A stretch of DNA of 64,000 nucleotides, taken from positions 3,857 through 67,856 of the IMG/VR virus record IMGVR_UViG_3300022602_000083, one strand, 5' to 3'. The notes beneath the pieces are model-generated. The model had not been told where the DNA came from. It worked only from the letters and a program-made list of their open reading frames with translations, and searched no databases. This document shows, one piece after another, positions 60,468 through 61,513 of the stretch (the stretch's first letter is position 1; each line of letters opens with the position of its first letter). This stretch comes from a virus. Both the position numbers and the translations under genes were made by a program.

Positions 60468-61513
60468 TGCCAGGTAAACTAAATGTCAACGGGGGCACAC
60501 CTAGTACAGCCGTAGGAATGCTGGCTAACATAGGTGGAGCTTGGCATACCGTTACTCAGGGATTTGTAAATGTCGCAGGTACTTGGCATCAATGGTTCAA
60601 GGCCTCAGTTCTAGACTCTTTTAACCGCACTACTTCAGGTAGCCTAGGCACAGCCGATAGTGGGCAGGCTTGGAATGCCACACGAGGTACTTGGTTTGCT
60701 AACGGTTCTCAGGCTCAGTCTAATGACGCAGCCTATAATTATTCAATTGCTACTATTGACACAGGTAGCGTAAGTAATATCCAAACCATAGGTAATACTA
60801 CCAATGGTACTGGCGCTGCTTTATGGGTTACAGATAGCGGAGACTGGTTCGGCGTAGCAGCTGGACAAGAGGTAGTAAACACGGTTTATTATTACACCTG
60901 TGGTTGCACAACCTGCTCTGGATCTTCGTGTACTTGTCAGAGCTGTTCTACCGTCTATTATGGCTGCGGAACTACGGGAGCCAGTTACTACGCAGGATCC
61001 TACACCCCAGGTCAAGAGTACTCATACTATGTATGTGCTGTCTACTACTCATTGGGTGCATGTAGAACTTACCAAATCCAGTATGGAACATACGCAGCTT
61101 CCTACACCCCGCCCTCTTATTACGCTGGAACGTACAGCTGTGCTGGAAGCCGTCAGTCTTGTTCTCCATCTTGCTGCTCATACTATTCCTATACCTGTGG
61201 CTGTACGACTTGCCAAGGTGGTAGCGTAAGCTATCCAGCCTATCTATATATGTATCAGTCTGTAGCTAATACCGTCACACAGGTGGTTCGCAGTGCTCTA
61301 TCTACAGTAGCAGCCAGCCTTAAAGTAATAACCTCTGGTGGAAACACCATTACAGCAACCCCCTACTCTGACTCCCTAGTAACACCGATAGGTTCCCCAG
61401 TGACCTATACCGCATCAAGTACCCAAACAGGCACTCAGTTTGGTATACTTCTTTCGCCTTCAGCGTACAACCAAGGTTCTGTACTGGATAATTACCAGTC
61501 TCAGAACAACTAA
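60467..61513 (+). CDS. Virion protein with Cys/Tyr-rich insertion
   Basis: DSFNRT...LGT core; all 16 Cys lie in one insert. Confidence 0.75.
   Translation: MPGKLNVNGGTPSTAVGMLANIGGAWHTVTQGFVNVAGTWHQWFKASVLDSFNRTTSGSLGTADSGQAWNATRGTWFANGSQAQSNDAAYNYSIATIDTGSVSNIQTIGNTTNGTGAALWVTDSGDWFGVAAGQEVVNTVYYYTCGCTTCSGSSCTCQSCSTVYYGCGTTGASYYAGSYTPGQEYSYYVCAVYYSLGACRTYQIQYGTYAASYTPPSYYAGTYSCAGSRQSCSPSCCSYYSYTCGCTTCQGGSVSYPAYLYMYQSVANTVTQVVRSALSTVAASLKVITSGGNTITATPYSDSLVTPIGSPVTYTASSTQTGTQFGILLSPSAYNQGSVLDNYQSQNN

What the first reader, a model, noticed from the sequence alone, without database searches (positions are those of the whole stretch)
60887..61234. Mirror-symmetric 8+8 cysteine hairpin inserted in a tail protein
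Seen: all 16 Cys of the protein fall in one insert of about 115 aa, grouped 3-3-1-1 then 1-1-3-3 around a tip C-AVYYSLGA-C. Spacers match on both sides (6/6 and 22/25 residues), YTCGCTTC appears at both ends and SYYAG twice, and the insert is very Tyr/Ser-rich. Inference: a long antiparallel stalk cross-linked by disulfides or metal and presenting an aromatic tip, conceptually like the bovine ultralong CDR-H3. It is a candidate variable receptor-binding antenna.
Basis: partly seen in the sequence, partly recalled or inferred. Interest (0 to 1): 0.7.

Follow-up and report, generated by a model that had tools for sequence, protein, structure and literature searches.

The report
Cysteine-stapled two-armed antenna on phage adhesin
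A lake phage's tail-region protein of the sugar-binding type carries a 105-residue outgrowth whose 16 cysteines sit as matched pairs on an outgoing and a returning arm, a design that a large undescribed phage family shares and resizes and probably uses to grip its host.

Summary
ORF 60467-61513 (+), 348 aa, holds 16 Cys, all within 105 residues, with spacings 1,2,4,1,2,6,22 | 8 | 25,6,3,0,6,1,2. This is more palindromic than shuffled spacings (p=0.0012).

The core is a ConA-like lectin/CBM beta-sandwich (Z 16.1-14.3 to GALC lectin domain, CBM66 and TM4 gp23 RBD). It lies in a virion/fibre gene block of a freshwater, WhiB-encoding phage.

The protein belongs to an uncatalogued family of 1467 clusters:
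- Cys counts after the N-core are even in 229 of 230 members, and 106 of those are not multiples of 4.
- Spacing is palindromic in 109 of 226 members.
- Lys/Arg peak at the exact centre of the Cys span.
- Variable cysteines are gained and lost as mirror partners.
- DNA homology to relatives breaks exactly between the two CxCxxC motifs.

Best reading: a disulfide-paired, out-and-back hypervariable appendage on a phage adhesin.

Not shown: the fold of this protein's own insert (pLDDT <50), the disulfides themselves, and any binding.

The scan noted the same family earlier on two other genomes. I found no published description.

The parts
60467..61513 (+). Gene for the 348-aa protein (stop included). 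ATG 60467 overlaps the stop of the upstream fibre-like ORF as TAATG.
   Evidence: homologues start MPGK
60467..60601 (+). N-terminal ~45 aa, a beta-rich segment modelled with low confidence. Only some family members have it. Possible anchor to the virion (inference).
   Evidence: pLDDT 41-69; sequences
60602..60874 (+). N-terminal half of the ConA-like lectin/CBM beta-sandwich core (aa 46-136).
   Evidence: Z 16.1 3zr5, 15.7 4b1m, 14.3 9n6a
60875..60931 (+). First flanking beta-hairpin (aa 137-155). The CxCxxC motif (C145, C147, C150; nt 60899-60916) sits at its turn.
   Evidence: (strands 137-145 and 148-155; mean pLDDT of the block of residues 141-150 = 90)
60932..61174 (+). Hypervariable interior of the insert (aa 156-236). 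No DNA homology to the closest relatives, and replaced in frame in a co-occurring lake variant.
   Evidence: pLDDT <50
60965..61036 (+). Outgoing arm, C167 to C190, with 22 Cys-free Tyr/Ser-rich residues between.
61034..61063 (+). Tip: C190-AVYYSLGA-C199, followed by Arg.
   Evidence: family Lys/Arg peak at the centre
61061..61141 (+). Returning arm, C199 to C225, with 25 Cys-free Tyr/Ser-rich residues between.
61175..61231 (+). Second flanking beta-hairpin (aa 237-255). The CxCxxC motif (C244, C246, C249; nt 61196-61213) sits at its turn.
   Evidence: (strands 237-244 and 247-255; mean pLDDT of the block of residues 241-250 = 89)
61232..61510 (+). C-terminal half of the ConA-like core (aa 256-348).
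59538..60467 (+). Upstream 309-aa virion-structural, fibre-like ORF. Its stop overlaps the target's start. It lies upstream on the same strand in 22 of 81 related loci.
   Evidence: (phrog_23837)

Best explanation
The gene encodes a distal virion (tail-fibre or baseplate-type) adhesin of a freshwater phage whose host is probably an actinobacterium. Its body is a ConA-like carbohydrate-binding-type beta-sandwich.

Two neighbouring strands of that sandwich are extended into two beta-hairpins, each capped by a CxCxxC turn. Between them the chain runs out and back as two arms of matched length. In this protein the layout is: six Cys on each side near the base, one rung C167-C225, two Cys-free Tyr/Ser-rich arms of 22 and 25 residues, and a distal rung C190-C199 closing the 8-residue loop AVYYSLGA.

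The arms are pinned by nested disulfides, eight in this protein. These most likely form once the virion meets oxic lake water. The appendage is the fast-evolving part of the protein. It is exchanged as an in-frame cassette between the two conserved CxCxxC motifs. It is lengthened or shortened by adding or losing a cysteine on each arm together. It most likely sets the reach and specificity of attachment to the host surface, while the conserved core binds a common glycan.

Shown here: the motif and its statistics, the fold of the core, parity, palindromic spacing, Cys covariation, and the cassette-like divergence.

Inferred: that the pairs are disulfides, when they form, and the binding role.
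For: 1. Core fold. The AF2 core has pLDDT >90. VIA-align gives Z 16.1 (3zr5, rmsd 3.0, 164 aligned), 15.7 (CBM66 4b1m), 14.3 (TM4 gp23 receptor-binding domain 9n6a) and 13.7 (Douge baseplate 8zdo_a). The relative P0026 gives the same neighbours. Douge CBM-fold domains bind mycobacterial glycans (PMC13033339, passages).

2. Context. The gene block runs terminase, portal, capsid, then large virion-structural and FN3/Gly-rich proteins, then the target. The capsid protein is 72-74% identical to those of Streptomyces myophages. The record has a WhiB gene, and among 14 control genomes WhiB rings only in Corynebacterium.

3. Pairing. Cys counts after the N-core are even in 229 of 230 proteins that have any, and 3 proteins have none. 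Among the 150 representatives, 148 are even, 0 odd and 2 have none, with counts from 4 to 46. An even-number bias is an accepted sign of disulfides (PMC2823432, passages).

4. Out-and-back order.
- Palindromic spacing: p=0.0012 for the query; p<0.05 in 109 of 226 members and in 79 of 145 representatives against 7 expected.
- Cys density is 22% at both ends, and Lys/Arg is 7.2% in the central bin against 0.3-1% at the ends.
- Arms carry different repeats of matched length.

5. Covariation. In a 15-sequence subfamily the six variable Cys columns form three perfectly co-varying, nested pairs across the arms: 4-17, 5-15 and 7-13, each 15 of 15. Mirror-partner gains and losses also occur in 4 further subfamilies of the 8 tested, including the query's nearest relatives.

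6. Structure of a relative. The AF2 model of P0026 is confident through the insert (block means 84-96). Its secondary-structure elements occur in mirror order, and CxCxxC sits at two hairpin turns.

7. Cassette behaviour.
- blastn to L002/4/5/8 is collinear at about 70% identity, except 60907-61183, which has no match.
- An independent lake run holds a contig joining 60903 to 61184 with 256 other letters in place of 280, which keeps the frame.
- Interior identity is 32-38% against 48-82% in the flanks.

8. Precedent. Functional disulfides occur in the tail apparatus of a freshwater phage, Pam3 (PMC9942802, passages).
Against: - The query's own insert was not modelled (pLDDT <50 for residues 155-233, no secondary structure). 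The 8+8 pairing for this protein therefore rests on analogy with relatives.
- I could not read model coordinates, so no S-S distance was measured in either model.
- Virion proteins are made in a reducing cytoplasm, and no thioredoxin, glutaredoxin or Erv1 gene was found in the 69%-complete record. The Erv1 search rang in no control genome, so it is uninformative.
- Parity follows partly from a mirrored architecture, so parity and palindromy are not fully independent.
- The sequences are related, so the covariation rests on few independent events.
- Only about half of the family is significantly palindromic. Two of the eight subfamilies tested show adjacent covarying Cys pairs, which points to a tandem rather than hairpin design.
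- One member (P0049) has an odd count.
- Residue-level mirror identity is at chance. Matched segments are no more alike than unmatched ones: 21.8% against 25.0% and 31.8%.
- The window and P0001 (98% identical) differ at 6 residues, only 2 of them in the insert, so there is no rapid hypermutation.
- No binding data exist. Not one of the family members I scanned has a Pfam or PHROG functional annotation.
Confidence: 0.6

Rival explanations
1. Structural strut or stabiliser. The disulfide-rich insert only rigidifies or protects the adhesin in open water (protease or UV resistance, spacing, or oligomer contacts). Specificity lies in the conserved lectin core.
For: The core carries the nearly invariant Trp/Asp/Gln positions. 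Cys-free members keep a Tyr/Thr-rich insert. In Pam3 the tail disulfides are structural. The insert is no more variable than the core between the 98%-identical pair.
Against: A pure strut would not need cassette-like turnover bounded by conserved motifs. It would not need insert lengths from 60 to 390 aa. It would not need a compositionally distinct basic tip.
Confidence: 0.2
2. The cysteines pair locally, forming a string of small knots or a compact knob, not an out-and-back two-armed stalk. The palindromic spacing of this protein is then incidental.
For: Two of the eight subfamilies tested show adjacent covarying Cys. The confident model of P0026 is built of short elements rather than one long ribbon. 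Granulin-type stacks (recalled) also have palindromic Cys spacing without i to n+1-i pairing.
Against: Covarying pairs 36-63 residues apart join the two halves in the P0026 group. Mirror-partner changes occur in the query's nearest relatives, with rank sums of 23, 22 and 25 where n+1 = 23. Arm lengths are matched at 22/25 and 6/6.
Confidence: 0.12
3. Metal-binding domain. The two CxCxxC motifs and the other cysteines coordinate Zn or an Fe-S cluster, in a metallothionein-like or zinc-ribbon-like way.
For: CxC, CxxC and CC motifs are typical of metal sites (recalled). The protein is made in the cytoplasm, and no oxidase was found.
Against: 106 of the 229 even counts are not multiples of four. 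There is no His in the query insert, and His is 0.2% family-wide. Strict evenness from 4 to 46 Cys is not required by metal sites. Cysteines are gained and lost two at a time.
Confidence: 0.06
4. A low-complexity, disordered linker with no defined structure. The cysteine pattern is a by-product of repeat expansion.
For: The query insert has pLDDT <50. Composition is biased, and there are tandem repeats within arms.
Against: Parity is even in 229 of 230 members, and there is covariation. The central Lys/Arg peak and the confident model of a relative's insert also speak against disorder.
Confidence: 0.02

Closest known systems
CBM-type receptor-binding domains of actinophage tail devices: Douge BppU-CBM and central-fibre NTD/CTD (PDB 8zdo, 8zdp) and the TM4 gp23 C-terminal RBD (PDB 9n6a)
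   Same: The same ConA-like beta-sandwich: Z 13.7-15.5, 165-174 residues aligned. They sit on the tail tip of phages of Actinobacteria. The Douge domains bind host cell-wall glycans (PMC13033339, passages).
   Different: There is no sequence similarity to these phages (%id 6-12 in the structural alignments). The alignments cover only the core, so the Cys-rich insert has no counterpart in them. The passages I read mention no such insert, and I did not inspect those sequences. Supplementary tables were closed.
CBM66 (4b1m), the galactocerebrosidase lectin domain (3zr5) and the GH43 C-terminal domain (6ms3): ConA-like lectin/glucanase fold
   Same: These are the best structural matches (Z 14.9-17.1).
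   Different: They are cellular enzyme modules. No Pfam ConA-clan family scores on the sequence, and they have no insert.
Bovine ultralong CDR-H3 (stalk and disulfide-rich knob)
   Same: A long protrusion made of an ascending and a descending strand, carrying paired cysteines and serving as a variable binding element on a constant scaffold (PMC8602281 and PMC10523490; search listing and start of abstract only).
   Different: It sits on an immunoglobulin scaffold and is diversified somatically. Its disulfides lie in the knob, not along and at the base of the arms. Here variation is germ-line, by cassette exchange and paired indels. This is an analogy only.
DGR-diversified phage receptor-binding proteins (Mtd type; tentaclins, PMC10743442, listing and abstract start only)
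   Same: A variable receptor-binding element on a tail protein.
   Different: No reverse transcriptase was found in the held record and no template repeat in the window. Differences among close variants are not adenine-biased (26 of 134 in run X5). Variation is in length and in whole cassettes.
Cystine-ladder beta-hairpin peptides (theta-defensins, protegrins) and granulin hairpin stacks (recalled, not tested)
   Same: Antiparallel strands stapled by successive disulfide rungs. Granulins also have a roughly palindromic Cys spacing.
   Different: They are small secreted animal peptides of 18-60 residues, with no sequence relation. Here the ladder is an insert of 60-390 residues in a phage lectin domain.
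Disulfide-linked tail fibres and baseplate of the freshwater cyanophage Pam3 (PMC9942802, passages)
   Same: Shows that the tail apparatus of a freshwater phage can depend on disulfides. DTT releases the fibres.
   Different: Those are a few inter-subunit bonds at the fibre-wedge joint, not a laddered appendage, and the proteins are unrelated.

Membership tests
ConA-like lectin/glucanase fold (structural class) | Two-sheet beta-sandwich superposable on solved members over most of the domain | tested here: met
   Z 16.1 (3zr5, 164 aligned, rmsd 3.0), 15.7 (4b1m), 14.9 (6ms3); 133 chains with Z>=8. One search gives the same for relative P0026 (Z 17.1, 16.9). Foldseek alone was weak (0 matches at E<=0.001).
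ConA-like lectin/glucanase fold (structural class) | Sequence-profile membership in a curated family of that clan (e.g. Laminin_G_3, GH43_C2) | tested here: not met
   no Pfam family at E<=1 for the ORF; none for 7 relatives, and only a weak fn3 hit in an eighth. Membership is at fold level only.
ConA-like lectin/glucanase fold (structural class) | Binds carbohydrate | not testable with these tools
   Needs glycan arrays or cell-binding assays.
Phage receptor-binding / baseplate CBM proteins (BppU-type) | Encoded within the virion or tail-fibre gene block | tested here: met
   upstream ORFs match phrog_5838 and phrog_23837 (virion structural), phrog_863 and phrog_529 (tail), and FN3 plus Gly_rich_2. 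The target's start overlaps the upstream ORF's stop. The order is conserved in related loci.
Phage receptor-binding / baseplate CBM proteins (BppU-type) | Present in the virion and binds the host surface | not testable with these tools
   The phage is uncultured and known only from metagenomes.
DGR target protein | Reverse transcriptase gene in the element | tested here: inconclusive
   no RVT_1 match in the record, but the record is only 69% complete.
DGR target protein | Template repeat nearly identical to the variable region, with adenine-specific differences | tested here: not met
   no second copy of the insert DNA in the 64-kb window; changes from A are 26 of 134 in run X5, and most changes are C/T transitions.
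Cys4 zinc sites / metallothionein-like metal clusters | Ligand sets in fours (Cys/His), and no requirement for even totals | tested here: not met
   106 of the 229 even counts are not divisible by 4; no His in the query insert, 0.2% His family-wide. Metal content itself is not testable here.
Disulfide-rich extracellular domain (general class) | Even number of cysteines, conserved across relatives with different counts | tested here: met
   even in 229 of 230 (148 of 148 representatives that have Cys), range 4-46. Criterion as used in PMC2823432 (passages).
Disulfide-rich extracellular domain (general class) | Oxidised cystines demonstrated chemically | not testable with these tools
   Needs thiol titration or mass spectrometry.

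The most novel reading that the evidence does not exclude
Phages of freshwater Gram-positive hosts have a germ-line, DGR-independent counterpart of the antibody stalk-and-tip design. It is a lectin-mounted, rung-by-rung extendable, disulfide-stapled antenna. Its cassette is swapped by recombination at the two conserved CxCxxC-coding motifs. Its length is tuned by paired gain or loss of cysteines. Because it can only be stapled outside the reducing cell, the virion's adhesin would mature, and perhaps become infection-competent, only after release into oxic water. It could be undone again at the reducing cell surface, which would make it a redox-gated attachment device.
Probability: 0.25. Interest if true: 0.85.

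Novelty: new variant of a known kind. Interest (0 to 1): 0.7.

Why it matters
If the reading holds, three things follow.

1. A very large, unnamed family of phage adhesins (1467 clusters at 50% identity) uses a structural principle not described for phage receptor-binding proteins. That principle is a disulfide-laddered, length-adjustable appendage inserted in a lectin domain. It would explain how uncultured lake phages vary host recognition without diversity-generating retroelements.

2. It raises a directly testable question: how and where are up to 23 disulfides made in a protein synthesised in a reducing cytoplasm?

3. It offers a natural, highly evolvable, Tyr/Ser-rich constrained scaffold of possible use for binder engineering.

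It also gives a sequence-only rule (even Cys count, palindromic spacing, central basic tip) for annotating these genes in viromes.

Tried and rejected
Family and sequence searches
- Pfam and PHROGs gave no family for the ORF or for 8 relatives. The only hits were a weak fn3 and two unknown-function PHROGs on N-termini.
- tblastn of the protein and megablast of 12 kb against 50,697 phage records found no match.
- Foldseek against the PDB found nothing at E<=0.001. VIA-align was needed.
- The 'shorter' homologue search, run to look for insert-less forms, gave 5 hits. Four are N-core plus a Cys-rich tail without the C-core. No insert-less form appeared.
- The genome-contig scan found only one locus, on a MAG contig labelled Bacteroidetes. 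It gives no host clue.

Parity counts that needed correcting
- The first attempt used regex anchors and caught only 36 of 94 proteins, all even.
- The second used HMM boundaries and gave 170 even and 57 odd. The C-core profile had swallowed the last Cys of the second motif.
- Counting all Cys after the N-core fixed this.
- Whole-protein parity is 211 even and 16 odd of 227. Across all 233 proteins, 15 carry one extra Cys in the N-core and 1 carries two.

Symmetry at residue level
- Residue-level mirror symmetry is rejected (13.3% against 12.8%).
- Partner-specific direct similarity is rejected (21.8% against 25.0% and 31.8%).

DGR and redox enzymes
- A DGR is not supported: no RT and no template repeat.
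- The held record has no thioredoxin, glutaredoxin or Erv1. The Erv1 search rang in no control genome.

DUF6171 neighbour
- I considered it as a specific partner. It lies downstream in 76 of 81 loci.
- It also occurs in cyanophages and Stenotrophomonas phages that lack the family, so the link may be lineage synteny.

Literature
- Searches found no description of the module. The CASP16 paper was irrelevant.

Steps not taken or not possible
Douge Table S2 and the Pam3 disulfide table were not seen.
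Full report
1. THE OBSERVATION

The finding lies in ORF 60449/60467..61513 on the + strand. The ATG at 60467 overlaps the TAA of the upstream 309-aa ORF as TAATG. The closest homologues begin MPGK at the same point. I therefore count residues from that ATG, giving 348 aa.

All 16 cysteines lie between residues 145 and 249. The gaps between them are 1,2,4,1,2,6,22,8,25,6,3,0,6,1,2.

YTCGCTTC occurs at both ends and SYYAG occurs twice. Of the 116 residues in the stated span, 24 are Tyr and 20 are Ser.

The chance that 16 Cys all fall in one given 105-residue span is 4.7e-9. 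The palindromic order of the gaps beats all but 0.12% of 50,000 shuffles of the same gaps.

The two YTCGCTTC-coding stretches are only 77% identical as DNA. They are therefore kept at the protein level and are not a recent duplication.

2. THE PROTEIN AND THE PHAGE

The window is part of a 67.9-kb virus record judged 69% complete. It holds one copy of the gene.

The gene order upstream is as follows:
- terminase, 35519-37102
- portal, 37701-39419
- major capsid protein, 40350-41426
- several large virion-structural proteins, including a 1335-aa protein matching phrog_5838
- an FN3 plus Gly_rich_2 protein
- a 309-aa virion-structural protein
- the target

The capsid protein is 72-74% identical to those of Streptomyces phages LuckySocke, Alone3 and BRock. 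LuckySocke is annotated with a tail sheath and tube and carries a tailspike gene between its head and sheath genes.

The record has a WhiB gene. Among 14 control genomes that family rang only in Corynebacterium. Near-identical DNA occurs in freshwater, lake and pond metagenomes of 17 studies. My inference is that this is a myovirus-like phage of a freshwater actinobacterium. The window's G+C is 45%.

3. THE CORE FOLD

AlphaFold2 with a 54-sequence alignment gave pLDDT above 90 for the body of the protein. VIA-align placed it in the ConA-like lectin/glucanase class:
- galactocerebrosidase lectin domain: Z 16.1
- CBM66: Z 15.7
- GH43 C-terminal domain: Z 14.9
- TM4 phage gp23 receptor-binding domain: Z 14.3
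- Douge baseplate chain 8zdo_a, residues 109-310: Z 13.7
- phage J-1 Dit CBM2: Z 12.3

Foldseek alone was weak. The ESM Atlas neighbours agree: viral hypothetical clusters, SO2946-like_C, Laminin_G_3 and GH43_C2.

In Douge, the BppU CBM (residues 116-311) and the CBM-fold domains of the central fibre bind mycobacterial arabinomannan and alpha-glucan fragments (PMC13033339, passages read).

No Pfam or PHROG profile scores on the sequence, so membership is at fold level only.

4. THE INSERT IN THE MODELS

In the query model, residues 155-233 have pLDDT below 50 and no secondary structure. I also had no access to coordinates.

The flanks are confident. Strands 137-145 and 148-155 form a hairpin whose turn is C145-G-C147. 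Strands 237-244 and 247-255 form a second hairpin whose turn is C244-G-C246. Each CxCxxC motif is thus predicted as the cap of its own hairpin, not as a facing rung.

For a relative whose insert has 15 alignable homologues (P0026, 286 aa, 18 Cys), the model is confident throughout the insert, with block means of 84-96. Its elements come in mirror order: long strand, CxC turn, strand, strand, short helix, strand, strand, tip, strand, strand, strand, strand, short helix, strand, CxC turn, long strand. Its structural neighbours align only to the core, at most 187 of 286 residues.

5. FAMILY-LEVEL TESTS

A word-seeded search found 94 relatives. An exhaustive profile search found 1467 clusters at E<=0.001 and 340 at E<=1e-30. 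All are unnamed. I analysed the 233 sequences returned.

(a) Parity. Cysteines after the N-terminal core half are even in number in 229 of 230 proteins that have any. Three proteins have none and one (P0049) is odd. Of the 229 even counts, 123 are multiples of four and 106 are not. Among the 150 representatives at 50% identity or less, 148 are even, 0 odd and 2 have none, with counts from 4 to 46. An even-number bias is an accepted indicator of disulfide formation (PMC2823432, passages). His is 0.2% of insert residues.

(b) Palindromic spacing. It is significant at p<0.05 in 109 of 226 members, at p<0.01 in 72, and sits at the permutation floor in 33. Among representatives it is significant in 79 of 145, against 7 expected.

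(c) Polarity.
- Cys density is 22% in the two terminal elevenths of the Cys span and 10-13% between.
- Lys+Arg is 0.3-1% at the ends and 7.2% in the central bin.
- This means the span has a base at both ends and a chemically distinct centre.

(d) Matched arms. Examples include five-residue repeats of one kind going out and of another kind coming back (P0095), and Cys-free repeat arms of 68 and 64 residues (P0199).

(e) Covariation. In the P0026 subfamily, 20 Cys columns include 6 variable ones. These form three perfectly co-varying pairs, 4-17, 5-15 and 7-13 (15 of 15 each). The pairs are nested and 36-63 residues apart. Across eight subfamilies, mirror-partner gain and loss recurs in five. 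One of the five is the query's nearest relatives P0002-P0006, where rank sums are 23, 22 and 25 for n+1 = 23. Two non-palindromic subfamilies show adjacent pairs instead, and one is mixed.

(f) Negative results.
- Matched segments are not mirror images in residue order (13.3% identity against 12.8% shuffled).
- Their direct similarity is not partner-specific (21.8%, against 25.0% for non-partners on the other arm and 31.8% on the same arm).
- The symmetry therefore concerns lengths and cysteines only, and each arm grows by its own tandem repeats.

6. VARIABILITY

Against P0002-P0006 the flanks are 69-82% identical and the interior between the CxCxxC motifs is 32-38%. Against the more distant P0007 the flanks are 48-54% and the interior 32%.

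At DNA level the window aligns collinearly at about 70% identity with four related viral contigs over 59483-60906 and 61184-63697. It has no match over 60907-61183.

In an independent lake run, a contig joins 60903 to 61184 with 256 other letters in place of 280, an in-frame replacement. In another run the stretch 60723-61218 carries 28 differences in 496 nt, against 10 in 894 nt downstream.

There is no reverse transcriptase in the held record and no template copy of the insert in the window. The 98%-identical homologue P0001 differs at only 2 insert residues out of 6 differences in all. Diversification is therefore by cassette exchange and paired indels over evolutionary time, not by hypermutation.

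7. MECHANISM

I conclude that the insert is an out-and-back appendage whose two halves are tied by nested disulfides.

For this protein the predicted layout has three parts:
- a base of 6+6 Cys, including the two hairpin caps
- a rung C167-C225, with two Tyr/Ser-rich arms of 22 and 25 residues beyond it
- a distal rung C190-C199 closing the loop AVYYSLGA, with Arg next to it

If the arms are extended strands they would reach roughly 7 nm. This estimate uses 3.3 Å per residue, a recalled value.

The oxidation step is inferred. No phage-encoded thioredoxin-fold or Erv1 enzyme was found in the incomplete record. Functional tail disulfides are documented in the freshwater phage Pam3 (PMC9942802, passages).

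The binding role is also inferred. It rests on the CBM-type fold shared with proven actinophage glycan binders, the tail-fibre gene context, the cassette-like turnover and the Tyr/Ser-rich composition. Such composition is typical of binding surfaces (recalled).

8. COMPARISON AND NOVELTY

The body is a new sequence family of a known fold and role, the phage CBM-type receptor-binding domain. The appendage resembles the bovine ultralong CDR-H3 and cystine-ladder peptides in principle only.

Three literature searches found no description of it. Subscription journals and supplements were not searchable.

The scan's own notes show that the same family was flagged on two other genomes, with similar follow-up conclusions (e1-6047895 and e1-5996370). 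I reached the reading before seeing those notes, and I re-tested its elements here.

9. VERDICT

- Observation: confirmed.
- Interpretation: partly supported. The paired, symmetric, variable architecture is supported. The simple single-stalk geometry and receptor binding are unproven.
- Novelty: a new variant of a known kind.
- Interest: 0.7.

Noticed in passing
window 62774-63073 (+): A small Cys-rich protein (DUF6171, 27.6 bits against a cut-off of 27; phrog_13558) lies downstream on the same strand in 76 of 81 related loci. That is far more often than the intervening genes. It also occurs in cyanophages and Stenotrophomonas phages that lack the family, so the link may be lineage synteny and not partnership.
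   Followed up: partly
window 63710-64000 vs L002/L004/L005/L008: This stretch is 97.9% identical to the related contigs, while the neighbouring 4 kb is only about 70% identical. That marks a sharp mosaic boundary.
   Followed up: no
family members P0023, P0024, P0025, P0037 and relatives (545-594 aa): A second architecture exists in the same family: long, non-palindromic inserts of tandem units with CC doublets. In these, adjacent cysteines co-vary rather than mirror partners.
   Followed up: partly
family members P0091, P0186, P0226: These are Cys-free members with 119-289-residue Tyr/Thr/Ser/Gly-rich inserts at the same site, so the appendage does not always need cysteines.
   Followed up: no
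P0235-P0238 (170-188 aa): These short proteins have the N-terminal core half plus a Cys-rich tail and no C-terminal core half. One repeats the SYYAG-type motif. They may be split or truncated genes.
   Followed up: no
window about 23205-23414 (-): A WhiB-family gene (65 bits), a hint that the host is an actinobacterium.
   Followed up: partly
window 59538-60467 (+): The upstream 309-aa fibre-like protein contains two copies of a repeat of about 47 residues, visible in its translation.
   Followed up: no
window 53780-57787 (+): The best relatives of this 1335-aa virion protein (phrog_5838) are in T4-like Synechococcus cyanophages at about 46% identity, whereas the capsid protein is closest to Streptomyces phages. 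The structural module therefore looks mosaic.
   Followed up: no
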